64,000 nt of DNA from NCBI GenBank assembly GCA_965368975.1, contig CBDUPA010000012.1, positions 96,001 to 160,000 on the forward strand. The letters are read 5' to 3'. Of this stretch, positions 10,170 to 34,800 are shown in pieces. The DNA comes from an uncultured bacterium. GTDB lineage: Bacteria; Acidobacteriota; Thermoanaerobaculia; Multivoradales; JAHZIX01. The translations under genes were made by a program, and so were the position numbers. Position 1 is the first letter of the stretch, and each line of letters starts with the position of its first letter. The notes below the pieces were generated by a model. That model searched no databases and was not told the origin of the DNA. It saw only the letters and a program-made list of their open reading frames with translations.

Positions 10170-10791
10170 GGTCGTGTCATCCTTGATGAAGTGGGTTCGA
10201 GGTGAGTTTCGGCGGTAGCGCGCATGAATTCCTGCTGCAATCTCCTTGGATTCGCGCTCATTGCAATGAAATTCATGCGCGATCTGGGGGCAGCTTAGGG
10301 ATGCGATGCTGGCTTTGTCAAGTCTTAGGCAACGCAAAGGCATAGATTTTTATGCGGCTGATGCCGATCTGGACTGGAGGAAGCGTGTTCAGGCGAGTTC
10401 CGAAGGGCACGGCGAATCGCACCTCGGCAAGGAGGTGGGGAGGGAGCGGTCTGGGTACTGCAGAGTTGCCTCAGATCAAAGGGAATATTTCTTCTGCAAG
10501 ATCAAATGTTCGCAGGAAGGGGGGGTGGCCCTGGGTTGTCGCCGCTGTGCGAGAGGCGTAGGATGGCCGTTTCGAGAAGCTGAGGAAGGGCGTAAGTAGT
10601 GCTAGAGGAACGAGTTGCGGGAGGAGGTCTACCGTCTCGGTGGCTGCTGGAGCAGCCCGCAAGAACGCCTGCGATAGTCTCTCTGGAGGCGACGGCTTGC
10701 TGAATGGGGCAAGTCGGCCTGAGTGTCTATATACATCTCAGTGGTATCCGTCATGAGGGCGGTGCCAAACATGGTGAAAAGGAGATGCGAA

Positions 10792-10890
10792 ATGCTGAAG
10801 TATGGTGAGGCGAAGAAGGCTGTCTACAGAGGATCGCTTATCGACCCGATCGGGTTTGATAGAGGGTCATTGATCGATCCCATCGGATAG
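10792..10890 (+). CDS. Unannotated 32-aa peptide MLKYGEAKKAVYRGSLIDPIGFDRGSLIDPIG
   Basis: AAGGAG RBS at 10779-10784; two identical RGSLIDPIG units encoded with several synonymous differences; hairpin downstream; below the ORF-track length cutoff. Confidence 0.75.
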   Translation: MLKYGEAKKAVYRGSLIDPIGFDRGSLIDPIG

Positions 10891-10953
10891 CCCCGCTGTC
10901 TCGGTCCTTCCGAGTCTAAACTGCTGAATCCCCCCCATCGTACTTCCCCATAT

Positions 10954-20845: not shown

Positions 20846-20892
20846 TTGCAGCTAAGAGCTTATTTGACAGCGGCTGCAAGCCTGGTTACGAT
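20846..20892 (+). promoter_or_regulatory. Sigma70-type promoter for the RiPP precursor with an overlapping inverted repeat
   Basis: TTGACA (20864-20869)-17 bp-TACGAT (20887-20892); TTGCAGC (20846) / GCTGCAA (20873) inverted repeat brackets the -35 box. Confidence 0.7.
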
Positions 20893-21001
20893 TTCCCCAT
20901 ATTCTCCTATTGCGGGTCCTCTTCTCGAAGCCATTCGAATCACGGTCATCCGGAGCCCCAGCGGTTCCTTATCTCACCACGTGACCTTTGGAGGACACAT
21001 C

Positions 21002-21124
21002 ATGAACAAGAGCAAGAAGCCCGTCTCGCTGAACCTCGAACTCGAAACCGTCGAGTCCCGCTGCAAGCCGGGCTGTGGCAGCTCCACCACGCTGCCGCTG
21101 TGCACCTGTCCCATTTCTTGCTGA
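21002..21124 (+). CDS. RiPP precursor peptide, 40 aa (MNKSKKPVSLNLELETVESRCKPGCGSSTTLPLCTCPISC)
   Basis: GGAGGA RBS; leader-like N-terminus; Cys/Ser/Thr-rich C-terminus; directly upstream of LanB domains. Confidence 0.88.
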   Translation: MNKSKKPVSLNLELETVESRCKPGCGSSTTLPLCTCPISC

Positions 21125-21133
21125 GGCGATTTG

Positions 21134-21168
21134 GCTACCGGATCGGACCGTGAATCCGGTCCGGTAGC
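21134..21168 (+). terminator. Stem-loop after the precursor gene (attenuator or mRNA stabiliser)
   Basis: GCTACCGGATCGGA-ccgtgaa-TCCGGTCCGGTAGC 14-bp stem with one G-U pair. Confidence 0.65.
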
Positions 21169-21235
21169 GGTACTCCTGAGCACCGTTTTCGCCCCATCGC
21201 CTGGGCAGCCCCCTGCCCCGGTATACACTAGAGGC

Positions 21236-22234
21236 GTGAAACAACCCGAGTCTCCGGAATCTGAGCATCCGGACCGTGATCCGGTCCCCGTACCGCCGGC
21301 TTCTCTGCAGGCTACTGCCGAGACGGAAGGCAACTACCCCGACCTGTACCTGGTTGCCGAGTGCGGCGAGCAGGATCAAGAGAAATTGGTGCGCGAACTG
21401 GTGGCCCCGATCGTGGCCGAGATCCGGGATCATCCGGAACTCGAGTCGCTGTTCTTCGTGCGCATGAGCAAGCCTACCTGGCAAGTCCGCCTGCGTGTCG
21501 TCGGAGACTTGGAGTGGTTGCAGAACCGCTGCAGGCGCGTGATGTGCCTGCGTCTCGACGCCTTGCGCGGCCGGCGGGCGGTGCACGACTTCAGCCTGGG
21601 GCACTACGGGCGTGAGCTCGAGCGCTACGGCGGTGAAGGCGGCATGCGCATCGCCGAACAGCTGTACCACCACGACTCGCTCGCCTGCTTGGACCTGATC
21701 ACCGCCGAGGCCCGCGGCCTGCTCGAACGTTCGCGGCGTGAGCTGGCGCTGCTCTACAGCGAGCGGCTGGCCAATCGGTTGGGCCTGCATGGCGAAGACC
21801 GCTCGCGCTTTTACCGCTACGGCTACCAGTGGACCTTCCAGACCGAGACCTGGGACCAGAGCGATGCCGACGCACTAGAAGAACGGTTCGAGCAACTGGA
21901 GGCCGGGCTGCGCTCCCTCTTTCCGCTGGGTGGCAAGGCACCGCCCGAGACGGATCTCTGGGGCGGAGACGAGCCGGCGCGCGTTGGTGCCGGCCTGGCA
22001 GCGTCGCAAGAACCAGCGCTGGCACGGCTGCTCAAGGGGCACAGGGCGGGGCGCATCGGCGGTGATCTGGCCTACCTCGGCTGGTCCTACTGCCACCTCT
22101 TCTGCAACCGCCTGGGCATCGACCCGTCCGGCGAGGCGGTACAGCGCTACCTGATGCACCTGTACCACTACCGCGTCCGTGCCCAGGGCTCGCTGCCGGG
22201 GCCCTTGCTCACCGAAGCGGCCAGCGACACCTGA
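21236..22234 (+). CDS. Stand-alone LanB glutamate-elimination domain (Lant_dehydr_C / thiopeptide-type bacteriocin biosynthesis domain)
   Basis: FFVRM..PTWQVRLRV, YGRELERYGG, AEQLYHHDS, SYCHLFCNRLG; start chosen at GTG 21236 after AGAGG. Confidence 0.88.
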   Translation: MKQPESPESEHPDRDPVPVPPASLQATAETEGNYPDLYLVAECGEQDQEKLVRELVAPIVAEIRDHPELESLFFVRMSKPTWQVRLRVVGDLEWLQNRCRRVMCLRLDALRGRRAVHDFSLGHYGRELERYGGEGGMRIAEQLYHHDSLACLDLITAEARGLLERSRRELALLYSERLANRLGLHGEDRSRFYRYGYQWTFQTETWDQSDADALEERFEQLEAGLRSLFPLGGKAPPETDLWGGDEPARVGAGLAASQEPALARLLKGHRAGRIGGDLAYLGWSYCHLFCNRLGIDPSGEAVQRYLMHLYHYRVRAQGSLPGPLLTEAASDT

Positions 22235-22237
22235 ACG

Positions 22238-25003
22238 ATGGGGGACGGCTACCCCCGAGAGGCGGACTGCTGGCAGAGAGGGCCCCGCATCGCCCTCCTA
22301 CGACTGGCGTTGCAACCCTGGCAGCGTCTGCAGGCTCTGCGCGCCGACGCGACCGTCGGGCACCTGGCCGTGGCCCGCCAGGCACAGGCCGAGCTCGACG
22401 CCCTCGTGCCGACGCTCGAGGCCGCACTGTTCACCGCCGCCGGTCCCAAGCGTCCCGCCGCCGGTCCCGTGGAGGCAGCGCGACGCCTGGCGTGCGTCGC
22501 GCTACGGCGGGCGGTGCACAATGGTCGGGAGTTGGACGCCTCGACACTCGGGAGCAGTGACCGCGACGGTGATCTGCAAGGGCAGCTGCAGCGATATAGC
22601 GAGCTGAAGGCTACTGTCGAGCGTGCCCGTGCCGCGGCGTTGCAGGCCTGCCAGGCCGAGTTGCCGCGGGCACGTCAGCACGTTCTCGACGCCAGCGCTG
22701 AACCGCTCCAGGCGGCGGCGCTAGCACTGGTCAGCCGATCGCTGTTCCGCCGGCTGCAGCGTCTGCAGGCCGCAGCCGCACCCCATACTCAGGCCCGCGA
22801 CGCCCAGACCCACGATACGCGTCACACCGTCGCCAAACTGCTCGCCTACCTCGACCGTGCCGCCAGCAAGACCAGCCCCAACGGCCTTTTCTGCGCCACC
22901 GCCGTCGCAACCTGGGGCGAGCGCCTGAACGTCCACCGCCTCGCTACGCCGCCGCGTGTCGATCTGCGCCTCAACGTCACCGAAGCGCGCAAACTCACCG
23001 CCCACCTCGGCTTCGGCCCGCAGATGGATGCCCTCGTGCGACCCCGTGTCACCACGACGCTGCATCGCCAATCCGCGGAGTCCGGCGAAGTCCTGACCTT
23101 CTGGCGCACAGCCTCGCTGCGTCGACCTGAGGACGACGAAGCTCTCCAGCGCCTGGGCGCACAGCCGATCGTCGACCTCTTCGTGCAACTGGCGGATGGT
23201 CGTCGCTCCGTTCCCGAACTCCTCCTGGCCGTCGCCAGCGCGGCGGCAGAGCACGGCATGGAAGTCAGCGTCGAGCAATTGGAGCCCTTCTTCCGCCAGC
23301 TCGTCGACGCCGGCCTGCTGCACGCCGAGATCGAGCTGCCGTACGGCTGCGGCCGCCCCCTGCGCGCGTTTGCGCATCGAGTTGAGGAACCGGCTGTCGA
23401 CGGGGCCCCAAGGATTGCCGAGCTCGAAGCCATCGAAGCCGACCTCGACGCCGTCAACGCCACGCCCATCGAGGCCGCCGCTGCCGTCCGTCTGCCCGCC
23501 ATCCTCGACGACCTGGCACGGCGTCTCGACGCCCAGGCAGCCACCCTGCCCGAACTGGCCCGGCCGCTCGTGCGCGATGAACTCTTCCGTCTCGACGCGG
23601 CCCTCGACGCGGCACCCGGTCGGCAAACCACCCTGCCGTGTCCCTGGCGCGACGCCCTGCAGCCCACCGTCGACGGCTACGCGCGCCTGTTCGCCTCGAT
23701 GTACCCGTCGTCAAACTATCGTCAGCGCCTGGCGTCCGCCTTCCTGGAGCACTGGCCCGCGGACACCGACATCCCCCTGCTCGACCTCTACCATCACTTC
23801 CAACCACCACCCCCGGATTCCCGCGTACTCGACTTCCCGTGCCCGAGCAGCGATGTCGATAGCCAGCCGTACCAAGCCTGGCAGCAAGCCCGCGCCCTGC
23901 TCGTCGAGCTGGCCAGACAGGCCAGGGCGGCCGGGGAGCACGAAGTCCGTCTCGACGACACCGCCTGGCATGCCTTGACGCATCCGCTTTCCGACCCAAC
24001 CGGTCCTTCTGAGACGCTGAAGTGGACCGCCGGCGTTCTCTTCCAGCCCGTGCTCGCCAGTTCCGCGAACCGAAAGCAGCAGAACCGGCTCGTCCTCAAC
24101 GCCCTCTTCTCGGGCACCGGCGTTGCCTTCGCCCGCTTTGCCGACCTGCACCCCGAAGTCGAGCCTGAGCTGCGCCGGCAACTCCGTGCCTCGGACTCTG
24201 CCGAAACCGCCCAAGTCCCCATCGTCGCCGAGCTGACCTACAACCACTGGGGCCGCACCGCCAACGCCGGCCTGCGTCCACGACTCCACGAGTGGGAACT
24301 CGAACTCCCCGGTGACCGCGCCTCCGATGCTGGCTACGCCGCTGGCAAGGTCCTCACCCTCGCCGACCTCACCCTGCGCTACGACTCCACCGAGCAGCGC
24401 TTCCACCTGCGTCGCATCCAAGACGGTCGCCAGGTCCTCCCCGTTCTGTCGAGCGGCGTCAGCCCCGAAGGCCTGGTGGCGCTGCTGGTGGCGATCGGGC
24501 GTCAAGAGCAGCAGCCCCTTGGTCTGCTCCCCGGCTTCGCCTGGCCGGAAGAAGAGCTGGAACAAGACTTCCCAGACGGCGTTGAGACCTGGCCCCGCTT
24601 CGTCCGAGCTGTTTCTTCGGAGGCAGGCACTGACGAGATCGACCTCGAAATCGTCCTCTGGCGCCGCCGCTGGCGCTTCCCCCGCGCCACCATTCCCAAA
24701 CCCCCAAAGTCCCGCCCCGGCGACGACGCTGACCTCCACCTCGCTACCTACTTCGCAGCCGTCGACACCTGGCGCCACCACCACCTCCTTCCTCGCCACA
24801 TCTACCTCCACACCGCCACCGTCCGCAAGCCCACCCACGTCGATCTCGAATCCCCCCTCCACGTCGAGCTGCTGCGTCGACGCCTGGCGTCAGAGAAGGG
24901 AGATGTCTACGTCACCGAAGCGCTGCCGGGGCCAGAGGGTCTGTGGTGGGGCGGTGGAGACGAGCGCTCGAACGTCGAGGTGCTGGTGCAGTTGGGGGTG
25001 TGA
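22238..25003 (+). CDS. LanB-type glutamylation domain (Lant_dehydr_N)
   Basis: YLDRAASKTSPNGLF, FARF, WPRF...RRRW, LPRHIY...RKPTHVDLESPL...VTEALP. Confidence 0.85.
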   Translation: MGDGYPREADCWQRGPRIALLRLALQPWQRLQALRADATVGHLAVARQAQAELDALVPTLEAALFTAAGPKRPAAGPVEAARRLACVALRRAVHNGRELDASTLGSSDRDGDLQGQLQRYSELKATVERARAAALQACQAELPRARQHVLDASAEPLQAAALALVSRSLFRRLQRLQAAAAPHTQARDAQTHDTRHTVAKLLAYLDRAASKTSPNGLFCATAVATWGERLNVHRLATPPRVDLRLNVTEARKLTAHLGFGPQMDALVRPRVTTTLHRQSAESGEVLTFWRTASLRRPEDDEALQRLGAQPIVDLFVQLADGRRSVPELLLAVASAAAEHGMEVSVEQLEPFFRQLVDAGLLHAEIELPYGCGRPLRAFAHRVEEPAVDGAPRIAELEAIEADLDAVNATPIEAAAAVRLPAILDDLARRLDAQAATLPELARPLVRDELFRLDAALDAAPGRQTTLPCPWRDALQPTVDGYARLFASMYPSSNYRQRLASAFLEHWPADTDIPLLDLYHHFQPPPPDSRVLDFPCPSSDVDSQPYQAWQQARALLVELARQARAAGEHEVRLDDTAWHALTHPLSDPTGPSETLKWTAGVLFQPVLASSANRKQQNRLVLNALFSGTGVAFARFADLHPEVEPELRRQLRASDSAETAQVPIVAELTYNHWGRTANAGLRPRLHEWELELPGDRASDAGYAAGKVLTLADLTLRYDSTEQRFHLRRIQDGRQVLPVLSSGVSPEGLVALLVAIGRQEQQPLGLLPGFAWPEEELEQDFPDGVETWPRFVRAVSSEAGTDEIDLEIVLWRRRWRFPRATIPKPPKSRPGDDADLHLATYFAAVDTWRHHHLLPRHIYLHTATVRKPTHVDLESPLHVELLRRRLASEKGDVYVTEALPGPEGLWWGGGDERSNVEVLVQLGV

Positions 25004-25177: not shown

Positions 25178-27901
25178 GTGGTCGTATGTCTCTTGGAGAC
25201 AGTCGTTCGAAGAGCAGTGACAGCTGCTGCGATTCTGACGCTTGTCGTGGGACTGGGCTTACAGGCACAGTCAGGGTCTGCTAACGCCCCGAAAGGGGCC
25301 CAGTTTGTCTTCGTGATCGATGATTCTGGCAGCATGGGGCAGCCGGAACACGGGCTTACAGACCCCGATCGGCTGGCTGTGTTCGCGGTGCGTGCTCTAC
25401 TGGGTGTGCTCGACGACCGGGACTGGGCGACAGTTGTTCGTCTCAATGGCCCTCGCGAGGGTGAAGATCCGCTATCGCTGGCGCCTTTGGGAGATGCGCA
25501 CCGAACCCGGCTGATGGAGGTTCTGCAGCTGGACGCGGAACTGGCGCGATATGAGGGGGAGTACACGCCTTGCCGAAGGGCTCTACAGGCCGTCAAGCGG
25601 ATGCTCGAAGGGTCGGATAGGCAGAACATTTCCCAAGTCGTGATCTTCCTTTCGGATGGCAAGTGCACACCGGTAACGCAAGGGGAAGATCGTGTCCTTG
25701 ACTTTGCTGAAGGTTTGCGCTCGGCTCAGGGAGAGAATCCGCGCCTTCAGTTCTACTTTCTGCGATTCGAAGGGCAAGAGTACACTCCGGGGCTGGAGCA
25801 GCTGGCCGAGAACACCGGAGGTTCGGCGATCGAGGTCCGACAGGGGGATCCGACGCGGATCCTCTACACCTTTGCGCAAGCGCTGGCCCGCTCGCAGGGC
25901 TACGAACCTCTGATCCTCAGTCCGAGCGTGCGGCAGCTGCCGGCCTACCGGGGGGCCAACCGAGTCCGCTTGCTGGCAATTGCGCGCGGCGATCAGGGAG
26001 AGCCGTTGGCGGTGCGCGTCCGGCGTCGTCAAGGGGGCGGAGTCGATACGGTGCCGATCGAGCAGGGCACCCACAGATTCCCGGGGCAACAGGGGTATCG
26101 CTTCGCTTCGGTGCAGTATCGGCCGGTCGAGCAGCCGGTGGAGGTGGAGGTGGTCGGAGCCGGCGAGGATTGGGAGGTCGTTGCCTTGCCGGAATATCAC
26201 CTGGCGGTCAACCTGGCCTTGCGTCGTGGTGGCTGTGAGGAGGAAGGCGAGACCCTGGGTGGCGTCACGCCAGCCGGAAGCGGATTGTGTGCGGTGATCG
26301 AGCTAGTCAATGAGGAAGGGCGCGTGGTGGGCAAGGAGGTGACCACCGGGCAGTTACAGGCTTCCTTGCGTCAGACAGTCCCGGGTGGTTCCGAGCCTCG
26401 GCTGATTTCGGCAACGGAAGCTTCCTCGGATCTCGCCAGCTTCCGCTTGGATATACAAGGGCTCGAGAGCGGTCACCACGAGTTTCAGGGGCAGGTCCAG
26501 TTGGGGACCCAGGTTGACGATCCCCGAGTTCTGACGGGCACTGCGCGAACACTGCAAGCAGTAGATCTGGCGATCCGGCCGGTTCCGAGTGAGCTGCGAC
26601 TCGATCCAATCCAGCCCGGTGAGGTCAGCCGTCAGAGCCTGGAGATCCATGGCAACTTCGCGCCGTCGGAAGCCGTGGTCTCCTTGGAAGAGGGAGAGAA
26701 TCTGCCGAGCTGCGTGACCTTAAGCTTTGACGGCAAGGAGCTTGGAGAGACCATCTCGATTCGTCCAAAGCAGGGCTACTGGGTCGAATTTCGGGCGGCC
26801 AAAGCCTGCGGCGAGACGCAAGGTCGACAGGTCGATGCGCGCCTGCGCCTGGAGCTTGCGGGACTCGATTCGATTGCCATACCGGTAACCTTTCGCTTGG
26901 AGAACAACGCCCAACGCCGAGATCCGACAACAGTGGAATTGCGGGCAGGTACGACGAGAGAGGTCGATGTAGCAATCCCCGCGGCCTGGAATTCTTTCGA
27001 CGTACAAGCAACCGCCGCCGAGAATGCGCAGGGCGAAACCTATGAGTTGCTGCGCGCTGAGATTCTGAGCGAGCCTCCGATTCCCTCTGAAGACGGTGAA
27101 GCCTCAGGTCGCCAGCGAGTCGAGGGATTGACCGCTGAACAGGGACTGTCTCTGCAACTCGTAGCTTCGGGCTGTTGCAGGTCCGGGACCTACGCCCTCG
27201 ATGTCTACCTGTGGCCCAAGGTCGGTGCCACGACCATCGTACCGCTGGTCGTCGAAGTCGAGGCCAGCTGGTGGACCTGCTACGGCTCTTGGGTGCTCGC
27301 GGGGACCATCGGTCTCTTGGCTGGCTTGCTGGTGTTCTATGTCCTGAGCATGTTCAGTCATACCACCTTGCTCGACCGAGACCAGCTGAGCGCTCGTCTA
27401 GTGCCCTTACGCTGGCCTCGCCATCGCGGCGCACCGCAACCCGCCAGCAATCGCAGTAGTGACCGAGAAGAGGTCGAAGACATTGTGCACAGTGAAGTCT
27501 CTAGCCTGCAGCGGGTGCGGAGCTGGCTACGAGCCAATCCCCTGGTCTTTGGCTCGCCTGGGCGAGAGTACAGAGAGACGGCCGAACTCTTTTTGACCAC
27601 TGATCTCGGGCTAACCTCGATTTCCCTGGTATTGGAGCGGGATGTCGTCGACCGACTCCGGACGAGCGAGGAGATCGACACTTGGGAAGAGGGGAGGCTC
27701 TTCGCGCGCGCCGGCAATCCCGTCTCCTTCTTTGTCGTGCGCGGTCCGAGCAAGAAAGTTCAGCAGATGACTCCGGAAGGCTGGTTCGGCAAGGTCGATG
27801 ACCTGACTGTCGAGCAGGTTTCCAAAGGACAAAGATTCATTCGTCAGCTTTCCATCAAAGAGCGCAAAGAAGGCGCTGTGGCCGGGTGGGTTCTGGAATA
27901 G
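25178..27901 (+). CDS. Membrane-anchored von Willebrand factor A domain protein
   Basis: Signal peptide; MIDAS FVIDDSGSM / YTP / IFLSDG; beta-rich middle region; TM SWVLAGTIGLLAGLLVFYVLSMF; C-terminal tail. Confidence 0.85.
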   Translation: MVVCLLETVVRRAVTAAAILTLVVGLGLQAQSGSANAPKGAQFVFVIDDSGSMGQPEHGLTDPDRLAVFAVRALLGVLDDRDWATVVRLNGPREGEDPLSLAPLGDAHRTRLMEVLQLDAELARYEGEYTPCRRALQAVKRMLEGSDRQNISQVVIFLSDGKCTPVTQGEDRVLDFAEGLRSAQGENPRLQFYFLRFEGQEYTPGLEQLAENTGGSAIEVRQGDPTRILYTFAQALARSQGYEPLILSPSVRQLPAYRGANRVRLLAIARGDQGEPLAVRVRRRQGGGVDTVPIEQGTHRFPGQQGYRFASVQYRPVEQPVEVEVVGAGEDWEVVALPEYHLAVNLALRRGGCEEEGETLGGVTPAGSGLCAVIELVNEEGRVVGKEVTTGQLQASLRQTVPGGSEPRLISATEASSDLASFRLDIQGLESGHHEFQGQVQLGTQVDDPRVLTGTARTLQAVDLAIRPVPSELRLDPIQPGEVSRQSLEIHGNFAPSEAVVSLEEGENLPSCVTLSFDGKELGETISIRPKQGYWVEFRAAKACGETQGRQVDARLRLELAGLDSIAIPVTFRLENNAQRRDPTTVELRAGTTREVDVAIPAAWNSFDVQATAAENAQGETYELLRAEILSEPPIPSEDGEASGRQRVEGLTAEQGLSLQLVASGCCRSGTYALDVYLWPKVGATTIVPLVVEVEASWWTCYGSWVLAGTIGLLAGLLVFYVLSMFSHTTLLDRDQLSARLVPLRWPRHRGAPQPASNRSSDREEVEDIVHSEVSSLQRVRSWLRANPLVFGSPGREYRETAELFLTTDLGLTSISLVLERDVVDRLRTSEEIDTWEEGRLFARAGNPVSFFVVRGPSKKVQQMTPEGWFGKVDDLTVEQVSKGQRFIRQLSIKERKEGAVAGWVLE

Positions 27902-27947
27902 AGCTCGAGGCCGGTCCGAAAACAAAAGCAAAATTGCGAGGTTGAAC

Positions 27948-30900
27948 ATGGCCAGAGATCGTAAGTTGATCGTCGAAGAACTCCTGACCAAGCCCAGCGG
28001 CGTGTGTCCGATGCTGTTCGTTGGTATGGGAGGAGCGGGTTGCAGGATGGTGGAGCGGATCGCCGGTCATCTCCGAGGTCGACCGGATTATAAAGAACGC
28101 TTCAAAGATCTGGTCAAGTTCGCCATGATCGACAGCAATGTCAATGATCTGGAAGGGTATCGAGAAGTGGCCAATGCAACCTTCCTGATCAGTGACTTCG
28201 AGAAGGAGGAGTACGCCAATCTGGCCTCTGGCAAGAAGTTCCTGGAACCGCAGCAGTACTTTACACAGTGGGTGCCGTCGGACTATCGCTTCCGCTCCGG
28301 AGATACCTCGGGGGCTGGCCAGATTCGCATCGAATCTCGTCTGGGTGTTTACTACCAGATGAAGCACAAACAATTCGTGCCCAGATTCCGCAGTCTCTTG
28401 GAGAGTCTGAAGTCGCACGAGAACGGACATCGGAGGTTGGACTCCGACGAGATCCGGATCGTACTCTGCTATTCCGTCGCCGGCGGAACCGGCTCCGGTT
28501 GTCATCTGCCAGTGGCCTATATGTTGCGGGATCAGGCCGACGACCTGGGCAAGCCGACTTTGATCGGTGTTGCGGTGTTGCCGGCGGTCTTCGAGGACAA
28601 GGTCGGCGTCAATAAGGATGGTGTTTTTGCCAACGGTTATGCAGCTCTGAAGGAAACCGAGCATTTGATGAAGCTCGGTGCCCCGGATTCTCGGTTCTTT
28701 CCCGAGAAGGGGATCGAGTTTCACTACAACCCCGCCGATGAATCGAAGCGAACGGTTCACGCGCGTCCCTTCGACTTCCTTTATCTGATCGACAAACCCG
28801 AGTCGTTCAGCGTTCCCGAGCCGGTGGATGCTGCGGCGGACGGACTCTATCTGCAGTTCTTCTCGCCCCTCTACGGGGCCCAGCTCTCCGACTACGACAA
28901 CTACACGCAGTACCAGAGGTTCTTGGTACCGGAAGACTTCGAAGAGGGAGGCATTCCGGGCTTCTCGACCTTCTATGGCTCCTACGGTTGCGCAGTGCTC
29001 CTGGTGCCGGTTCCCGGCCTGGTGGAGTATTGCAGCCAGGCTGCCGCCCTGGCGTTGATTCGGGCCAGCTTCATGGGGGATATCCCAGCGGATCCGATGT
29101 ACGAGCCCTTGCGCATCGACAGCGACCGCTTCTATGAAGTCAAGGAGCGCGACGACGAGGATGCGCAGCTCTTCCAGGCTGCGGATATCCCCAGTCAGCC
29201 TCAGAAAGAGCGTCGCCGAAGGTTGTTCGATCGGCTTTTTGCCAAGCGGGTGCGCCTGCTGGCGGCGTGTGAGTACCGGGCTGACCGCGACGGCCGGTTC
29301 CGCGGCATCTTCCGGCACGGCCACTATCTCGGAACCATCCCGAAGCTCGACGGTAGCGCCGTCATGGACATGGAGCGGTTCGACGAAGAGGCCGAGCGCG
29401 AGCGCGAGCTGGTCGGTGGCAAGCTCAGCGTTTCGATCGGCGGCATCATCCTGCCCGCCTTGGTCGGACTGCCGGGGGACGACCCCGGACTCCTGCAACG
29501 GGCGCACCAAGCGATCAAGAACTTCAAGGTCGACAAGCCGCGTCGTGACATGCGGGTCAACGAACTACGAGCGCGCGGCGACGCGTGGCGGACGATGTTG
29601 AGGGATGAGGGGCGTCAACGCCTGCGCGATGGCTACAGCGATGGCACGGTGCAGGTGCCTGGCATGGAGAGCCTGGTGCAAATGGACTTCCTGCGCCGGG
29701 AGGCGGGAGAGGTCGAGCTGGCGGCCAAGCGCTACGCGGTGCTCTCTCTGCTCGACGCGGTGGATTGGGAACAAGCGCCGGAAGACGAGGCCGAGTCCAA
29801 CTTCGATGTCCAGGAGAAGAAGCCCACGGCCAAGGCCGACGATGCCTTGATCGAGCACGTAATCAACCAGGCTCGGGATCTGGCCTTCCGCGACATCCGC
29901 CGCGAGTTCCTGTCCCAATTGGGCGAGTTGCGCGAGGCGCTGGAGAGCATCGCCGACGAGATGCGGGAGCTGGAGCAGGGGTCGACCAACCTGGAGCGCG
30001 AGTACGGTCGTCGCCTGGAGCGCCTGCAGTTCCAGGGCGAGGAGTCGGCCAATCAGTACATCCTGGACGCCGAGGCGTTGCAAGGGGAAGACAATCGACG
30101 CTTCTGGGACTTCTACTTCGAGGACAAAATCGCAGCTCTGCCCGAGTTGTCGCTGAGCAATGCTCGCGTGCAACAAATCCTGAGTGACACCGTCATCGAG
30201 CTATCGCAGCGTACGGGCCGCAGCACGAGCACGTCACGCCTGGAGAAACTGTTCACCGCGTTGCGCAAGTATGCCCAGGACTTCCTCGACAAGCGGATCG
30301 GCGGTGATCGTCACTCACCGGACCTGGAACGTCGCGAAGGGTTGACGCTGTCGGATGCGCTGGAGCTGGAGATCACCTACCGAGCGCTCTATCGCAGCTA
30401 CGCCGAAGCGATCCAGGGGCAGGGGGACAAGGTCATTCGTCGCATTCTCTCCGAATACCGCGCCCTGCCCGACGAGAAGCAGATCGATTTCGCGGAGCCC
30501 AAGCACCAGGACTATCTGCGCGACAAGATCAAGCGGGTAGTGCAGGAGAAGGCATCCCTGCTCTGTGTCTACAACCACTCACGCGATCAGCATGGTGGCG
30601 TGCGGCCAAACCATATCTTCCTGGCCGCGATTGATGAGAACTTCAAGAACAGCAACATCGAACAGGCGCTGAAAGATGCCGACATCGATGATCTCAAGTG
30701 GGTGTCCGGCAGCTGGCACAACGCCAAAGAGATCGTCTTCTACCGCGCGGTGTTGAATGTTCCGCTTTACACCTTCGGTCGGCTCGACCAGATGAAGCAC
30801 CACTATGAAAGCTTCCGCAGTCTGAGGCGGCGCTCGAAGGTGCTGCACATCGACAAGAACTGGGAGGGTGACCAGCTCTGTGACCTGGATCCGGGCACGC

Positions 30901-31817
30901 TCAAAGAAGTGCATCGTCAACTAACCGTGCGCGACCAGATCATCAACTTCACCTCGCTGCTGAGCAGCAAGCATCCGCGCATCGATGAGAAGGGGGCTAC
31001 CTGCATCTTGCGTCGGCGCGGGCGCTACTATCTGCTGGATCCGACCCTCAGCAAGATACCCGATGAGCACGATCCTGGTTCGACCTTGTTGGGCGACGCC
31101 CTGGCCCGAGCCATCGAACGCTTGCCCGAGGTGCTCGATGCCGAGCGCGTGAACTTCAGCGAGTACCGGGATTCGCTGCACGGTGTACGCAATGGCATGG
31201 CCCCGTGGCTGCTGGGCAAGATCTGCAGGTTACCTTTCCAGTGGCGCCTGCAATACGAAGATTTGAGCAACCACTATGGGCATCAGCGTTCGATCGAGCA
31301 GCAAGAGATTCTGCGTGATCTGAAAAACTCCTACGAGAAGCTCAATGAAGCGCTGGACTCTCTGCTCGCGGAACTGCGCAATCGTCGACTCGAGAGTCGG
31401 ACCCGCAAGGAGGACTTCACGGTCTACGCTCGCCGCTTGACCGCCCAGCAGGCCAAGGATGCACTGGATCAGAGCATCAAGGTGCTGGCCAACTACAGCG
31501 AGGCCTGGAGCAAGGTCGAGGACAGCTCGCAGGTCCCGGATACCCCCGAGTCGTTCGTGGATCTCTTCCAGCCTCTGGACCATGGCAAGTTGCAGAGCAT
31601 GCTCGACAAGTTGCACAAGCCGATCCTTGATGACGATGATGACGATGAGGAAGGCGATGGCCCCGGCCCAGCCAAGCCCCCAGCGGAGCCGGTCAAGCGC
31701 CCAGCGGAGCCAGACAAGCCCTCAGCGGAGCCAGACAAAGACTCGGCGGAGCCAGACGAAGACTCTGCCACTGAAGAGCCTTCGGAACCAGATCCCACTG
31801 AAACCGAAGGGTCATGA
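27948..31817 (+). CDS. Tubulin/FtsZ-like GTPase (Tubulin_2 / FtsZ-like 1 family) with a long helical C-terminus
   Basis: FVGMGGAG (T1), GAGQIRIESR (T3), YSVAGGTGSG (signature loop), ANGYAALKE; GAGG RBS. Confidence 0.88.
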   Translation: MARDRKLIVEELLTKPSGVCPMLFVGMGGAGCRMVERIAGHLRGRPDYKERFKDLVKFAMIDSNVNDLEGYREVANATFLISDFEKEEYANLASGKKFLEPQQYFTQWVPSDYRFRSGDTSGAGQIRIESRLGVYYQMKHKQFVPRFRSLLESLKSHENGHRRLDSDEIRIVLCYSVAGGTGSGCHLPVAYMLRDQADDLGKPTLIGVAVLPAVFEDKVGVNKDGVFANGYAALKETEHLMKLGAPDSRFFPEKGIEFHYNPADESKRTVHARPFDFLYLIDKPESFSVPEPVDAAADGLYLQFFSPLYGAQLSDYDNYTQYQRFLVPEDFEEGGIPGFSTFYGSYGCAVLLVPVPGLVEYCSQAAALALIRASFMGDIPADPMYEPLRIDSDRFYEVKERDDEDAQLFQAADIPSQPQKERRRRLFDRLFAKRVRLLAACEYRADRDGRFRGIFRHGHYLGTIPKLDGSAVMDMERFDEEAERERELVGGKLSVSIGGIILPALVGLPGDDPGLLQRAHQAIKNFKVDKPRRDMRVNELRARGDAWRTMLRDEGRQRLRDGYSDGTVQVPGMESLVQMDFLRREAGEVELAAKRYAVLSLLDAVDWEQAPEDEAESNFDVQEKKPTAKADDALIEHVINQARDLAFRDIRREFLSQLGELREALESIADEMRELEQGSTNLEREYGRRLERLQFQGEESANQYILDAEALQGEDNRRFWDFYFEDKIAALPELSLSNARVQQILSDTVIELSQRTGRSTSTSRLEKLFTALRKYAQDFLDKRIGGDRHSPDLERREGLTLSDALELEITYRALYRSYAEAIQGQGDKVIRRILSEYRALPDEKQIDFAEPKHQDYLRDKIKRVVQEKASLLCVYNHSRDQHGGVRPNHIFLAAIDENFKNSNIEQALKDADIDDLKWVSGSWHNAKEIVFYRAVLNVPLYTFGRLDQMKHHYESFRSLRRRSKVLHIDKNWEGDQLCDLDPGTLKEVHRQLTVRDQIINFTSLLSSKHPRIDEKGATCILRRRGRYYLLDPTLSKIPDEHDPGSTLLGDALARAIERLPEVLDAERVNFSEYRDSLHGVRNGMAPWLLGKICRLPFQWRLQYEDLSNHYGHQRSIEQQEILRDLKNSYEKLNEALDSLLAELRNRRLESRTRKEDFTVYARRLTAQQAKDALDQSIKVLANYSEAWSKVEDSSQVPDTPESFVDLFQPLDHGKLQSMLDKLHKPILDDDDDDEEGDGPGPAKPPAEPVKRPAEPDKPSAEPDKDSAEPDEDSATEEPSEPDPTETEGS
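31681..31764 (+). repeat. 4 x 21-bp coding tandem repeat (AEPxKxx)
   Basis: C(A/G)GCGGAGCC units start at 31681, 31702, 31723 and 31744. Confidence 0.8.
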
Positions 31818-34800
31818 CCAACCTGGTGTATCCGGCTCCGGGTATCGTTGTGGGCGTTGGCCGCTTTGGGCTGGCGGTCCTCGAAAAGCTCGGCGAGGAT
31901 TGGCAACAGCTGAAGCTATCGGGGGCCGGGCCGTCGTGCGAGAACCTACGCCTGTTTTGGGTCCATCCAGAGCAGGACGACGAGGGCTGTTGGCGGGAAA
32001 TCGAGCTGCCCGAGCTGAACACCGCCAATTACAGTGAAGATGGCGACTGGCCGTCGATCGTGCTCGACTTCGTGCTCTTGCGCACCATGGGATTGATCCG
32101 CTATCGCCATGGCATCTACCAGGTGGCTTCGCCGCGCGATTGCGGCCCGGTGCGAACGGCCGATCTCGAGTATCCGGAGACCAAAGACAAAGAAGATCCT
32201 GAAGCAGAAGAAGCCAAGAAGGATCGCGAAGAAGATAAGCGACTGGTGCGCCGCCGCTTCTTCGACTGGCTCGACCTGGCTCCCGACCCCGTCGAGGCCG
32301 CGGAGCGACTGAAGAAGAAGGCCGAGCGTGAGCCGGTATTGCACCTCTTCATCTCTCCCTTGCTGCACCGGGTGCGGCAGGGCCACAGCCCGTGGATCTT
32401 GATGGCTGCGATCCTGCGCTGTAGTTGCTTGCGCGCCGGTCGAGACCCTTCGCCGTGGCGCTGGGTTCGCGAACAGGAGGCGCAAGGCAAGATCGACCAG
32501 GAGGCCATCCAGACGGTATGCGAGGACCGTGACAGGTTTCTCGACCGTTTCGCGCCAGCACCCCTGAAGCCCTCACCACAGCCCGAGGTCGATGAGGGGG
32601 AAGTCGAGGGGAGAAAGACGGACGTCTGGAAGTTCGAAGAGACGGAGATCGTCATTCCCAAGATCTTTCGGCCCCAGGAGGGAGATCCGGAGCCGCCGAT
32701 CGATACCTTTCACCTGCTGCGTGAGAACTGGCAGGTATCCGGCTGGGCGACCGATCTCGAGACGCAGAAACAGCAGGGTTTCAAACCGCTGCAGGTGAGC
32801 CATTTCCGCCTGGGTCTTTTTGACCACTGTCAACACCGGGAGTCGAGAGAGCCCGAGTTGACAAAGGCCTTCGAGAAGCGACTCAAGTGCACGTCCAGGC
32901 TCTTGCATCGGGGGCTGGTTCGGTTGTGGGTCGATCTCAAGCGCGAGCAGGTAGAAGAGCAGGCTCTCGCCACCGGTGAGCGCCGCCATCGCCTGCTCGA
33001 TGAAGCACTACAGCAAAGCTTGAAGATCCTGGAGAAGTTGGTCGTGGATCCGCTGAAGGACGCTCCCGGCAAGGAGAAAGAGGGCGAGTGCTTGAGCGAT
33101 CTCTTGCGCTGTCCGGTCGACTTGCCGGACCAGCCGACCCAGTTTCTGCGCAACCAGTGCTTCGATCCTGACTCGCGGTGGTTGCGGGACAGCGCCTTGG
33201 AACGACGCCTGGTAGCTCTCGGGCTGGGAGACCCGTGGCGCGCCGCGCCGCGACGGCGGGGATTGTTCCAGGAGGTGATCCTCGAGAAGCAAGCCGAGGG
33301 CGGCTGCGCTCCAGGCGAGAGCGATGATCGCCCCCGATGCACGGAGATCGCCAAAGAGCCCAAGTCCGCTGGCGAAGGCCGGGGTCGATTCCGCAAGCAG
33401 CTGAACCAGACGGTCCGAGAGTTGTTGGACTTTTCCTACCTGGGAAGGTACCGCGAGCGCTTGACTCGCACACCGCCACGTCTGACGGTCTTTGTCGTCG
33501 GTGACATGAGCGAGCCCTTTACGCGCATCAAGATGCAGCAAGTCCTCAAGGACGTTCACTCGGAACTGCTGCGGGCCTTCAGCTCCGTGTTCGAACTGAA
33601 CCGGGATGGCTTCGATCGTGCCTTGTCCGTCATGCCGATTCTCTGGATGCCGCATCCGGCGGATCCGTTCGGTGGTGAGGAGCCACTGAAGACACGCCTG
33701 GAGGAGGCGGTGATCATCGATGCGGTGCACGGTATTCGACGCTGGGTCGAGGCGGTGTTACCCGGTGCGCGGCGCCGGATCTCGCAGATTTTCATCAACA
33801 GCAGGGTCACGGACAACGCGGTCTTGAGCATGGACGACAGCGTCAACCAGACGCGCGACTTCCTATCCTTCCAACTGCGCAATGACCTATCGCGCGATGA
33901 CTGGCTGCGTCGGACCGCGGTGGGTCCGGGGGGCGACGACTACTTCGCCTCGTTCGCCTGCTGCGAGATCGAGTTCCCGGCGGAGAGGGCGCGCGAATAC
34001 CTGGCCAATCGCATCGCTCGCGACTGCTTGCGTCAGCTGCAGGTGGAAGCTGAATGGCGGGGGCGCGAGGCGGTCAAGGTACCCGATCCCTCATCCATGG
34101 AAGAGCTGGTCGGAGAGGCGAGTTCGCGTCTGCAGCAGGAGACGGAAAGGGAGGCGAAGGGTCTGACGGACGCCATCTGGAATGCCCTGCCGCAGGGCGA
34201 GAGCTCCCGGCGCTGCATGCCGCGCAAGGAGATCCTGAGCCACTTCTCGGAGCGTTTCGAAAGCCGACTGTGGGCGGACATCACGCGACTGTGGCGACAG
34301 CTGACCCAGCGTCGAGGTCACATGGATGACTTTGTCGATTCCTTGCGACACCAGATCTCCCGGCAGCTGCATGGTGCGCTGCCCGACATCCGGCGTCAGA
34401 GTGACGACGAGGTGTACCAGGCCAGTGGGCAAGGTATCCAGGCGGCACTCTCGCGCCTGCAGGAACGCCGCTGGCAAGCCTTCAAGCAGCTGCAGGAGGC
34501 GGAGGAAGAACGTCTCCAGGCCGAGGAGGCCTGCCAGCAGAATCAGCGGCCGAACCGTGGCAGGCTGTCGCGGGCCCGTCTGGCAGTCACGGAGGCAGCG
34601 AAAGCCAAGCCGGATTGTGGTCCGCAGCGCTTCGGTCTTCTCGCCTGGGGCCTGTTGGCTCCGATCACCGCGGTGTTGCCCGCTCGTTTGTTGGAGTCCG
34701 AACTGGGCTGGTGGGCGTTGCCTTTGGTGATTGTTTTGCTGATCGTATTGGCGGGTGTCTCGCTCTGGGCCTTGACGCGCCATCGGTATCGTCAGCTGCA

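What the first reader, a model, noticed from the sequence alone, without database searches (positions are those of the whole stretch)
20846..25003. Minimal RiPP cluster: Cys-rich precursor plus split LanB, with no cyclase, YcaO, protease or transporter
Seen: a near-consensus promoter, a 40-aa precursor (putative core GCGSSTTLPLCTCPISC with 4 Cys, 3 Ser, 3 Thr), a hairpin, then a separate elimination-domain gene placed before the glutamylation-domain gene. Key motifs appear intact (YxxRxxxKTSP; FFVR, RYGG, H..CNRL). The flanking genes are unrelated. Known: class I lanthipeptides use a fused LanB plus LanC; split LanBs occur in thiopeptide and goadsporin-type clusters together with YcaO; PEARLs lack the elimination domain. 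This locus fits none of these. Inference: a new class of dehydroamino-acid peptide with cyclase-independent (methyl)lanthionines or disulfides, or a PF14028 protein that doubles as cyclase (thiopeptide pyridine synthases are homologs of this domain), or a cyclase acting in trans.
Basis: partly seen in the sequence, partly recalled or inferred. Interest (0 to 1): 0.85.

Follow-up and report, generated by a model that had tools for sequence, protein, structure and literature searches.

The report
Cyclase-free split-dehydratase peptide cassette
A small three-gene unit (a cysteine-rich peptide plus a two-part dehydrating enzyme) is real, intact and repeated in more than a hundred soil-bacterial DNA stretches, almost always without the ring-closing enzyme such peptides normally need, which makes it a good candidate for an undescribed kind of modified peptide.

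Summary
Window 20864-25003 (+) holds a promoter-like site, a 40-aa precursor, a strong hairpin, a stand-alone PF14028 glutamate lyase (GL) and a PF04738 glutamyl-transferase (GT).

It is not a decayed cluster. The same cassette recurs in 48 genome loci and 66 non-redundant metagenome loci, mostly Thermoanaerobaculia (Acidobacteriota). It comes with a precursor family that no Pfam or NCBIfam model matches in the 10 precursors tested. The leader reads LxLE(V/I)xx(L/I/V)E. The core is C-x(1-2)-[ST]4-x3-C-T-C, usually followed by P.

Only the two enzymes, and in most loci the precursor, are shared between loci. A LanC-like ORF lies within the flanks of 1 of 48 and 1 of 66 loci; YcaO lies in none. 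Fifteen of 44 cassette-bearing assemblies have no LanC hit at all, yet keep the Cys triad wherever a precursor was found.

The GL keeps the Arg/Tyr signature of anti-eliminating lyases. The GT profile is closest to TbtB and has no extra domain.

Most likely it makes a tRNA-Glu-dependent, leader-guided dehydrated peptide whose cysteines react without a dedicated cyclase. This is chemically unproven. The closest known systems are the pyritide and thiopeptide split LanBs. In this genome a trans-acting orphan LanC cannot be excluded.

The parts
20864..20892 (+). sigma-70-like promoter TTGACA-17-TACGAT
   Evidence: 10 of 12 matches; 1 site found against 0.2 expected from shuffles. This is a consensus match only; function is not shown.
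20990..20995 (+). Shine-Dalgarno GGAGGA, 6 nt before the precursor ATG
   Evidence: sequence read directly.
21002..21124 (+). 40-aa precursor peptide. Leader motif LNLELETVE; core CGSSTTLPLCTCPISC
   Evidence: It belongs to a family of 68 + 49 precursors that share invariant L10 L12 E13 E18 G24 S28 T30 C34 T35 C36. None of 10 tested precursors reached a curated Pfam or NCBIfam cut-off.
21134..21168 (+). 14-bp hairpin between the precursor and the enzyme genes (likely attenuator or transcript stabiliser)
   Evidence: -37.8 kcal/mol, z -5.66. A comparable hairpin follows many precursor stops in homologous loci, by eye mostly the last one before the lyase gene. 29 of 68 windows after precursor stops have z < -2.
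21236..22234 (+). Stand-alone glutamate lyase (LanB elimination domain, PF14028), 332 aa. The alternative start TTG 21131 gives 367 aa
   Evidence: The model has pLDDT 89. Best PDB matches are MadB, MibB and NisB elimination domains. The ERYGG Arg and Tyr are kept.
22238..25003 (+). Glutamyl-tRNA-dependent Ser/Thr glutamyl-transferase (split LanB, PF04738), 921 aa
   Evidence: It aligns over residues 17-919 with homologues. The family profile hits TbtB 6ec7 at 9.4e-38, including the N-terminal 220 positions.

Best explanation
This is an intact, self-contained RiPP cassette of a conserved but undescribed family, found mainly in Thermoanaerobaculia.

Proposed mechanism:
1. The precursor is transcribed from its own promoter. 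A hairpin after its stop codon probably keeps precursor mRNA in excess over enzyme mRNA (inferred).
2. The 921-aa TbtB/MroB-like transferase recognises the LxLE(V/I)xx(L/I/V)E leader. It transfers glutamate from Glu-tRNA(Glu) to the Ser/Thr block of the core (SSTT, and probably the Thr of CTC) (inferred from homology).
3. The stand-alone lyase removes the glutamate by anti-elimination, giving Dha and (Z)-Dhb (inferred from homology and from the Arg/Tyr signature).
4. The three invariant cysteines then add to these dehydro residues to form (methyl)lanthionine-type thioethers without a dedicated LanC. This would happen either spontaneously under substrate control or on the dehydratase (inferred; the least certain step).
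5. Export and leader removal use unlinked functions in this genome. Some relatives carry an adjacent C39-ABC exporter or MFS pump. In other lineages a SAM methyltransferase joins the cassette.
For: Anatomy and domain hits.

Conservation of the cassette:
- The lyase was searched in 61 genomes (own plus 60 relatives). Three besides the window's own carry a stand-alone orthologue at 44-49% identity, in other families of the same order.
- 75 stand-alone homologues were found at E <= 1e-10.
- 25 clusters at 50% identity were found at E <= 1e-30, 19 of them 262-296 aa and 6 shorter pieces of 176-229 aa. No fused LanB scored above 90 bits.
- 46 genome loci and 80 metagenome loci were fetched; 66 of the 80 remain after dropping 14 near-identical ones.
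- The transferase gene is adjacent in 43 of 48 loci.

Precursors:
- 68 in 42 of 48 loci and 49 in 38 of 66 loci carry the core C-x(1-2)-[ST]4-x3-C-[ST]-C.
- Invariant columns are given.

No other shared gene:
- 3503 ORFs from 48 loci were clustered. Only the enzyme cluster and its antisense shadow occur in all 48. The next clusters occur in 11 and 8 loci.

Cyclase absence:
- A LanC HMM hit 1 of 48 loci. That hit (L047) is at the locus edge, 8.4 kb away behind a 2035-aa gene.
- It hit 1 of 66 metagenome loci (L128, an 822-aa protein).
- YcaO hit 0 of 48 and 0 of 66.
- No PF05147 hit lies on the cassette contigs of G030 and G056. The nearest in G021 is about 1 Mb away.
- 15 of 44 cassette-bearing assemblies have no PF05147 hit at all. 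In 12 of these a precursor was found, and it keeps the Cys triad.

Enzyme type:
- The ERYGG Arg and Tyr are kept. PMC9486935 section 9 gives this as the anti-lyase signature.
- Foldseek scores LanB elimination domains at 1.7e-10 to 1.8e-7, against 1.4e-6 to 5.8e-5 for TsrL and the pyridine synthases.
- The transferase profile is closest to TbtB, then MibB, GodF and MadB.

Leader binding:
- Predicted transferase-precursor complex scored 0.44 (runs 0.37, 0.46, 0.44); best control 0.03; the tool's verdict was 'weak support'.
- The mark was reached by 58 of 80 solved complexes and 2 of 110 mismatches. At 0.60 or under it was reached by only 7 of those 80 and by both mismatches.
- The runs agree in at least 57% of contacts, and the partner's pLDDT is at least 50.
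- A like complex (NisB with the NisA leader) is solved, so the pass may come from memory.
Against: - No product, dehydration or ring has been observed. No RNA-holding run was listed, so expression is unknown.
- The own genome has a stand-alone LanC with WCYG and GLCHG motifs and no adjacent dehydratase on contig C1. It also has two LanCs in a canonical cluster on C13. Any of these could act in trans.
- 29 of 44 cassette-bearing assemblies do have LanC-like genes, often 10 or more.
- The 15 assemblies without LanC are metagenome-assembled genomes of 2.5-5.0 Mb with unknown completeness.
- The window's precursor lacks the ...TT(G/A)SLFTA(K/R)T.. tail of most Thermoanaerobaculia members and ends in an extra Cys.
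- In 5 of 48 loci no whole transferase gene was found beside the lyase. One locus is cut by the contig end, one holds only a fragment, and three have none within the flanks.
- YcaO was sought in the loci with a single-sequence phmmer only, which is a weak test.
- Dhb is much less reactive than Dha towards uncatalysed thiol addition (recalled chemistry, not tested here).
Confidence: 0.55

Rival explanations
1. Same dehydration chemistry, but the rings are closed by a LanC encoded elsewhere in the genome. Candidates are the orphan LanC on contig C1 and the two LanCs of the class I cluster on C13.
For: - There are 9 PF05147 matches in the own genome.
- The C1 protein (481 aa) has the GLAHG, WCYG and GLCHG motifs and no dehydratase beside it. 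A small Cys-rich ORF lies just upstream of it.
- 29 of 44 cassette-bearing assemblies have LanC-like genes.
Against: - 15 of 44 cassette-bearing assemblies have none, yet keep the Cys triad where a precursor was found.
- Homologues of the C1 LanC do not track the cassette. G021 (100% complete, 3 contigs, cassette present) has no match at E <= 1e-20. Where the neighbourhood could be compared (G020, G052), the closest homologues sit beside fused LanBs.
- The other stand-alone LanC-like protein (C13:186 kb) lacks the Zn-ligand motifs.
- LanC lies within the flanks in only 1 of 48 and 1 of 66 loci.
Confidence: 0.2
2. The product is a linear dehydro-peptide. Its cysteines are not thioether partners; they stay as thiols, form disulfides, bind metal, or are S-methylated in the lineages that carry a methyltransferase.
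For: - No cyclase is present.
- A CxxxC spacing (C-N/K-P-G-C) precedes the core in most Thermoanaerobaculia members.
- In 8 of 48 loci a SAM methyltransferase directly follows the transferase gene, or in L048 the lyase gene. One member of that cluster (the L056 protein) was scanned and gives a TPMT (thiopurine S-methyltransferase) match at 1.3e-6, 28.7 bits against a cut-off of 26.
- Two loci (L078, L087) carry a Cys-free small ORF with the same leader beside the lyase.
Against: - Free thiols next to four consecutive dehydro residues would be expected to react (recalled chemistry).
- The fixed spacing of the Ser/Thr block to CTC (x3) is what ring formation would constrain.
- L078 and L087 lack a transferase gene in their flanks, so they may be a different system.
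Confidence: 0.17
3. A pyritide-like product: the single PF14028 protein both eliminates glutamate and performs a [4+2] or other cyclisation.
For: - PF14028 includes pyridine synthases, which are among the fold matches.
- The leader resembles the pyritide leader.
- Relatives L068, L071 and L084 carry extra PF14028 paralogues with a degenerate ERYGG, so the fold has been recruited again within this family.
Against: - The window has one PF14028 gene with the full lyase signature.
- It is closer to LanB elimination domains than to pyridine synthases.
- The invariant Cys triad is not explained by pyridine formation.
Confidence: 0.05
4. A decayed or silent remnant of a larger lanthipeptide or thiopeptide cluster.
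For: The cassette is missing from the 5 same-family genomes searched; only one weak hit at 7e-8 was found. No RNA evidence is available.
Against: - All three ORFs are intact and align end to end with homologues.
- The same minimal set recurs in over 100 loci with different neighbours.
- The core motif is invariant.
Confidence: 0.03

Closest known systems
Pyritide pathway MroA/MroB/MroC/MroD (Micromonospora rosaria; PMC9247985, passages read)
   Same: A YcaO-free split LanB pair (glutamyl-transferase plus lyase) that dehydrates an unmodified, leader-bearing peptide. The leader has an acidic LDLxVxEEL-type motif. The gene set is very small.
   Different: Pyritides need a second PF14028 protein (MroD) for the [4+2] step; the window has none. 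Pyritide cores as printed have two reacting Ser and no Cys. Here there are four consecutive Ser/Thr and an invariant Cys triad. Here the lyase gene precedes the transferase gene.
Thiopeptide and goadsporin split LanBs (TbtB/TbtC, LazB/LazF, GodF/GodG)
   Same: The best solved relative of the transferase profile is TbtB (6ec7, 9.4e-38), and GodF (9jhq) also matches. Length and N-terminal region are shared. NCBIfam names the lyase 'thiopeptide-type bacteriocin biosynthesis protein'.
   Different: No YcaO or azole machinery and no pyridine synthase were found in any of the 48 + 66 loci.
Class I lanthipeptides with split LanB (pinensin; SapT SptBa/SptBb/SptC; PMC7268733 passage and PMC9890492 passages)
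   Same: The precursor has Ser/Thr and Cys, an FNLD-like (LNLE) leader box, and tRNA-Glu-dependent split dehydration.
   Different: Those clusters encode a LanC cyclase; this family does not. SptBb is a syn-lyase that lacks the Arg; this lyase keeps the Arg and Tyr of anti-lyases.
PEARLs (peptide aminoacyl-tRNA ligases; bioRxiv 10.1101/2024.03.12.584671, passages read)
   Same: A PF04738-type tRNA-dependent domain acting on a peptide.
   Different: PEARLs have no elimination partner. Here a lyase gene with intact motifs is translationally adjacent. The own genome has separate PF04738-only genes on contig C9.

Membership tests
Split LanB dehydratase (glutamyl-transferase + glutamate lyase) | PF04738 protein and a separate PF14028 protein encoded side by side | tested here: met
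   The pair is adjacent in 43 of 48 loci.
Split LanB dehydratase (glutamyl-transferase + glutamate lyase) | Anti-type lyase active-site signature (the Arg equivalent to NisB Arg826, and a Tyr rather than Lys) | tested here: met
   ERYGG aligns with the MibB and NisB ERYGG. R130 and Y131 are invariant in 33 sequences. The criterion is taken from PMC9486935 section 9.
Split LanB dehydratase (glutamyl-transferase + glutamate lyase) | Glu-tRNA-dependent dehydration of Ser/Thr demonstrated | not testable with these tools
   Needs reconstitution and mass spectrometry.
Class I lanthipeptide gene cluster | LanC cyclase (PF05147) in the cluster | tested here: not met
   None is in the window's contig region. 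It lies within the flanks in 1 of 48 and 1 of 66 homologous loci.
Class I lanthipeptide gene cluster | Precursor with Ser/Thr and Cys in the core and a leader box | tested here: met
Class I lanthipeptide gene cluster | (Methyl)lanthionine in the product | not testable with these tools
   Needs MS/MS and amino-acid analysis.
Thiopeptide gene cluster | YcaO/azoline-forming machinery in the cluster | tested here: not met
   The own genome's only YcaO is on contig C27. phmmer with it found 0 of 48 and 0 of 66 loci; a single-sequence search is a weak test. Clustering found no further family in more than 11 of 48 loci, and the clusters in 11 and 8 loci that were inspected are not YcaO.
Thiopeptide / pyritide gene cluster | A second PF14028 protein acting as [4+2] pyridine synthase | tested here: not met
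   PF14028 occurs at only two places in the own genome: this gene and the fused LanB on C13. Extra paralogues were seen in L068, L071 and L084, the three of 48 loci with more than one lyase match.
PEARL | PF04738-type enzyme without an elimination partner | tested here: not met
   The lyase gene ends 3 nt before the transferase start.

The most novel reading that the evidence does not exclude
This would be a new RiPP class, widespread in Acidobacteriota and neighbouring soil phyla. A two-protein split LanB alone would turn a C-x-[ST]4-x3-CTC core into a polycyclic thioether peptide. No dedicated cyclase would be involved: ring closure would be substrate-programmed or carried out on the dehydratase itself. 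The cassette may also be a portable module that lands beside defence genes. The window has a DruE / type IIG / DrmD-like island 16 kb downstream, and some relatives have TIR-STAND or nSTAND neighbours.
Probability: 0.3. Interest if true: 0.85.

Novelty: new variant of a known kind. Interest (0 to 1): 0.65.

Why it matters
Lanthipeptide dogma pairs every class I dehydratase with a LanC cyclase. Mining rules as I recall them (for example antiSMASH's class I rule, not checked here) demand both, so clusters like this one may go uncalled.

This family offers three things:
- a conserved precursor motif that no tested Pfam or NCBIfam model matches;
- more than 100 natural sequence variants;
- members in assemblies with no LanC hit at all.

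Together these make the question 'can defined thioether rings be made without a cyclase?' directly testable with three genes. If the answer is yes, this is the smallest known enzyme set for lanthionine-type macrocycles and a compact tool for peptide engineering. If the answer is no, the cassette still defines a new family of dehydro-amino-acid peptides from poorly cultured Acidobacteriota.

Tried and rejected
- Decayed-cluster idea: rejected on conservation.
- Extra cyclase domain in the 921-aa transferase: rejected. Its N-terminal 220 profile positions align with TbtB residues 15-228, and total length matches TbtB (861 aa) and GodF (867 aa). A single-sequence phmmer against the PDB found nothing at E <= 0.01, so the profile was needed.
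- Zn site in the lyase: there is no invariant Cys among 33 sequences.
- Synteny test for insertion: the upstream transglutaminase/TPR gene has no orthologue in the 5 same-family genomes, only weak TPR hits. No empty site could be compared.
- Expression: no RNA holder was listed. The one DNA run holds 0.05 of the sampled words.
- Cys-free small ORFs in L078 and L087 looked at first like proof of cyclase-free use. Those loci have no PF04738 gene in their flanks, so I give them little weight.
- Literature: six full-text searches found no paper on this family. The terms covered split LanB, LanC-free wordings, Thermoanaerobaculia, Acidobacteriota, and glutamylation/elimination domain. One search was spoiled by 'lanc' matching plant names.
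- The glutamate-lyase network of PMC9486935 (its Table S6) may already contain this group among 'other RiPPs'. Supplements are closed, so I could not check.
- A defence-island association across loci was not quantified.

Full report
WHAT IS THERE

Window 20864-25003 (+) holds, in order:
- a sigma-70-like site, TTGACA-17-TACGAT (20864-20892). It is the only such site in 4.8 kb, against 0.2 expected from shuffles;
- a GGAGGA ribosome-binding site;
- a 40-aa ORF (21002-21124) reading MNKSKKPVSLNLELETVESRCKPGCGSSTTLPLCTCPISC;
- a perfect 14-bp hairpin at 21134-21168, at -37.8 kcal/mol and z -5.66;
- a PF14028/TIGR03891 protein in ORF 21131-22234;
- a PF04738 protein of 921 aa at 22238-25003, starting 3 nt after the previous stop.

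The TTG at 21131 lies 3 nt upstream of the hairpin stem. GTG 21236 gives the 332-aa form that the protein database holds and is the more likely start.

The flanking genes are SecD, SecF and a transglutaminase-like/TPR protein upstream, and a VWA protein and a PF13809 tubulin-like protein downstream.

THE REST OF THE GENOME

The window is G000:C12:96001-160000. The assembly is 7.1 Mb and 99.3% complete.
- PF05147 (LanC) matches 9 places, all on other contigs: C18, C1 (two), C13 (three), C22, C41, and a weak hit on C11.
- The single YcaO is on C27.
- PF14028 occurs at only two places: this gene and a fused 1167-aa LanB on C13. That LanB sits beside two LanCs, forming a canonical class I cluster.
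- PF04738-only genes (PEARL-like) lie on C9.

Two LanC-like proteins stand alone.
- The C1 protein (481 aa) has GLAHG, WCYG and GLCHG motifs and no dehydratase nearby. A small Cys-rich ORF lies just upstream of it.
- The protein at C13:186 kb lacks the Zn-ligand motifs.

IS IT A DECAYED CLUSTER? NO.

The lyase protein was searched in 61 genomes (own plus 60 relatives). It finds stand-alone orthologues at 44-49% identity in three genomes of other families of the same order: G021, G030 and G056. It finds none in the 5 same-family genomes, where there is only one weak hit at 7e-8.

In all three orthologous loci the lyase gene is preceded by one or two small ORFs and followed by a PF04738 gene. 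In G056 only its N-terminal part is seen, because the contig ends there. The neighbours differ from locus to locus:
- in G021, an NRPS module and a sigma-54 activator;
- in G030, DnaB and alanine racemase upstream, and a TIR-NB-ARC-TPR protein and a Uma2 nuclease downstream;
- in G056, a sigma-54 activator and a hybrid kinase.

No PF05147 hit lies on the cassette contigs of G030 and G056. In G021 the nearest is about 1 Mb away.

Wider searches gave:
- 75 stand-alone homologues at E <= 1e-10 among the 8000 candidates scored;
- 25 clusters at 50% identity at E <= 1e-30 among 1.84 billion representatives, 19 of them 262-296 aa and 6 shorter pieces of 176-229 aa, with no fused LanB above 90 bits;
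- 46 loci in species-representative genomes. Most are titled Thermoanaerobaculia or Acidobacteriota. Some are Polarisedimenticolia, Eisenbacteria, Rokuibacteriota, Binatia, Planctomycetota, Verrucomicrobiia, Omnitrophota, and one is labelled Patescibacteria;
- 80 metagenome loci. I dropped 14 as near-identical (9 to genome loci, 5 to each other), which leaves 66.

WHAT IS CONSERVED

I clustered 3503 ORFs of at least 70 aa from 48 loci: the 46 genome loci, G021 and the window.
- Only the enzyme cluster and its antisense shadow are present in all 48. The next clusters are in 11 and 8 loci.
- The transferase gene is adjacent in 43 of 48 loci. In the other five, L080 is cut by the contig end, L048 has only a fragment, and L078, L084 and L087 have none within their flanks.

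Accessory genes are lineage-specific.
- A SAM methyltransferase directly follows the transferase gene, or in L048 the lyase gene, in 8 loci. One member of that cluster (the L056 protein) was scanned; it has a marginal TPMT match.
- An MFS pump follows the transferase gene in 5 loci. The precursor was found just after it in L069, L070, L085 and L088; L066 ends inside the MFS gene.
- A C39-ABC exporter was verified by Pfam only in L060. A cluster of ABC-type homologues spans 7 loci.

THE PRECURSOR FAMILY

A leader-pattern scan gave 70 hits. Two are spurious. The other 68 are precursors, in 42 of 48 loci.
- Of the six loci without one, L075 and L086 are cut upstream and L066 and L080 are cut downstream.
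- L078 and L087 instead carry a Cys-free small ORF with the same leader.
- The 66 metagenome loci, many only 1-3 kb long, gave 53 hits. Of these, 49 have the full core motif (in 38 loci), one is a near variant, and 3 are spurious.

In an alignment of 23 precursors, L10, L12, E13, E18, G24, S28, T30, C34, T35 and C36 are invariant. C25 and P37 are at or above 90%. The family signature is:
- leader LxLE(V/I)xx(L/I/V)E;
- core C-x(1-2)-[ST]4-x3-C-T-C, usually followed by P.

None of 10 precursors reaches any curated Pfam or NCBIfam cut-off at E <= 10. Many Thermoanaerobaculia members carry a further ...TT(G/A)SLFTA(K/R)T.. tail. The window's precursor lacks that tail and ends in ..PISC.

A hairpin follows many precursor stops, by eye mostly the last one before the lyase gene. 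29 of 68 windows after precursor stops have z < -2, and 16 have z < -3.

CYCLASE AND YcaO

I built a LanC HMM from the eight own-genome LanC stretches.
- It hit 1 of 48 loci. That hit (L047) is at the locus edge, 8.4 kb upstream, behind a 2035-aa gene. It also serves as an internal positive control.
- It hit 1 of 66 metagenome loci: L128, an 822-aa convergent protein.
- phmmer with the own YcaO hit none. This is a weak test, but the clustering shows no further shared family.

Flank coverage:
- 29 of 46 genome loci have at least 3 kb on both sides of the cassette, and 42 of 46 have it on at least one side.
- 7 of 66 metagenome loci have it on both sides, and 17 of 66 on at least one.
- About 592 kb and 213 kb of flank were examined in total.

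Genome-wide, 29 of 44 cassette-bearing assemblies have PF05147 hits and 15 of 44 have none. Those 15 are assemblies of 2.5-5.0 Mb with unknown completeness. A precursor was found in 12 of them, and all of those keep the Cys triad. If a LanC were required, missing it in all 15 by incompleteness alone is unlikely (inference).

Homologues of the own genome's competent orphan LanC do not follow the cassette. G021 has no match at E <= 1e-20. Where the neighbourhood could be compared (G020, G052), the closest homologues sit beside fused LanBs.

WHAT KIND OF ENZYMES

The lyase:
- The AlphaFold model has pLDDT 89 and pTM 0.85.
- It matches the elimination domains of MadB, MibB and NisB best, at 1.7e-10 to 1.8e-7. 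TsrL and the pyridine synthases PbtD and TbtD follow at 1.4e-6 to 5.8e-5.
- Its FFVR...VRLRV...ERYGG...HxxCNRL motifs align with MibB, MadB and NisB and are conserved across the family.
- PMC9486935 (section 9 read) states that anti-eliminating lyases keep the Arg equivalent to NisB Arg826 and a Tyr. Syn-lyases replace the Arg by a hydrophobic residue and the Tyr by Lys. This family has the invariant Arg-Tyr of ERYGG, so (Z)-Dhb is expected.

The transferase:
- Homologues align over residues 17-919.
- A 15-sequence profile hits TbtB (6ec7, 9.4e-38; profile positions 1-220 against TbtB residues 15-228), then MibB, GodF and MadB.
- There is therefore no spare domain that could hide a cyclase.

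Leader binding:
- A predicted transferase-precursor complex gave 'weak support'. The score was 0.44 (runs 0.37, 0.46, 0.44), and the best control was 0.03.
- The mark was reached by 58 of 80 solved complexes and 2 of 110 mismatched pairs. At 0.60 or under it was reached by only 7 of those 80 and by both mismatches.
- The runs agree in at least 57% of contacts, and the partner's pLDDT is at least 50.
- A like complex (NisB with the NisA leader) is solved, so the pass may be from memory.

MECHANISM

Shown by homology and conservation:
- a leader-bearing substrate;
- a tRNA-Glu-type glutamyl-transferase;
- an anti-type glutamate lyase;
- co-inheritance of the three genes.

Inferred:
- dehydration of the [ST]4 block and of the Thr in CTC;
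- the hairpin sets the precursor-to-enzyme transcript ratio.

Least certain is the fate of the three invariant cysteines. The fixed x3 spacing between the Ser/Thr block and CTC is what ring formation would constrain, as is their retention in assemblies without LanC. I therefore favour thioether formation without a dedicated cyclase (0.55 for the whole reading). The rivals are a trans-acting LanC (0.20), a linear dehydro-peptide with free, oxidised or methylated thiols (0.17), a bifunctional PF14028 protein (0.05), and a remnant (0.03).

COMPARISON WITH KNOWN SYSTEMS

The closest is the pyritide pathway (PMC9247985, passages read). MroB and MroC are a YcaO-free split LanB that dehydrates unmodified peptides, and the MroA leader contains LDLAVDEEL. 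Pyritides, however, need the second PF14028 enzyme MroD, and their printed cores have no Cys.
- Thiopeptide and goadsporin split LanBs share the enzyme type but come with YcaO machinery.
- Split-LanB class I lanthipeptides (pinensin, SapT) come with LanC.
- PEARLs lack the lyase partner.

Six full-text searches found no description of this family. The supplementary tables of PMC9486935, which might list it among 'other RiPPs', could not be opened.

VERDICT

This is a real, intact and conserved minimal RiPP cassette. The enzymes are of a known kind. What is new is the precursor family and a cyclase-free architecture that recurs in more than 100 loci. It is a new variant of a known kind, with a 0.3 chance of being a genuinely cyclase-independent thioether peptide class.

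Noticed in passing
window 41341-57933 (-): A defence-island-like run of genes, 16 kb downstream of the cassette: a UvrD-type helicase (721 aa), a 2165-aa DruE-like helicase with an MrfA Zn-binding domain (PADLOC DruE 3.6e-99), a 1671-aa type IIG restriction-methylase/DrmMI-like protein (1e-240), and a 974-aa DrmD-like SNF2 helicase (7.9e-98).
   Followed up: partly
window 25178-39797 (+): A four-gene same-strand block directly after the cassette: a VWA protein (907 aa), a PF13809 tubulin-like protein (1291 aa), a 1351-aa protein with no Pfam hit, and a 1315-aa protein with a DEAD helicase domain. None has a PADLOC hit. Function unknown.
   Followed up: partly
L089:7301-8879 (= G000:C1, about 561.3-562.9 kb): An orphan LanC (481 aa; GLAHG, WCYG and GLCHG present) with no dehydratase nearby. 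A 76-aa ORF with a Cys-rich tail precedes and overlaps its start. This mirrors the window's dehydratase without a cyclase.
   Followed up: partly
G000:C13:45-52 kb and G000:C9:118-128 kb: The same genome holds a canonical class I cluster (fused 1167-aa LanB plus two LanCs) and a run of PF04738-only (PEARL-like) genes without PF14028.
   Followed up: no
L068:9164-12135; L071:10193-11044 (-); L084:10819-11697 (-): Some relatives carry extra PF14028 paralogues with degenerate catalytic motifs. Examples are DKW(V/I)GG in place of ERYGG, or loss of the RxR. Their precursors end in CTC(M/P/A)C. These could be non-lyase (cyclase-like or syn-type) recruits of the fold.
   Followed up: partly
L078:~9700-10903 and L087:~9700-10903: A Cys-free small ORF with the family leader (LRLEVREVE) lies upstream of a lyase gene, but no PF04738 gene is in the 10-kb flanks.
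   Followed up: partly
L048, L055, L056, L064, L068, L074, L083, L086: A ~250-aa SAM methyltransferase directly follows the transferase gene, or in L048 the lyase gene. Only the L056 member of this cluster was scanned; it has a marginal thiopurine S-methyltransferase match (1.3e-6; 28.7 bits against a cut-off of 26). Six of these 8 loci are in assemblies without any LanC hit.
   Followed up: partly
L041:4158-6512 (-) (G030); L061:12545-16984 (+): Defence-type neighbours of the cassette in relatives: a TIR-NB-ARC-TPR STAND protein with a Uma2 nuclease, and a 1480-aa nSTAND3/helicase protein whose relatives lie downstream in 5 loci. Actinobacterial class I 'lanthiphage' clusters are reported in defence islands (bioRxiv 10.1101/2024.06.26.600839, abstract read). 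The association was not quantified here.
   Followed up: no
L044:9656-9856; L103:9066, 10377, 10765: A precursor sub-type with paired cysteines (..CCGSSTT...CTCPI.LT.CC..), giving 6 Cys. L103 has three copies, two of them after the lyase gene.
   Followed up: no
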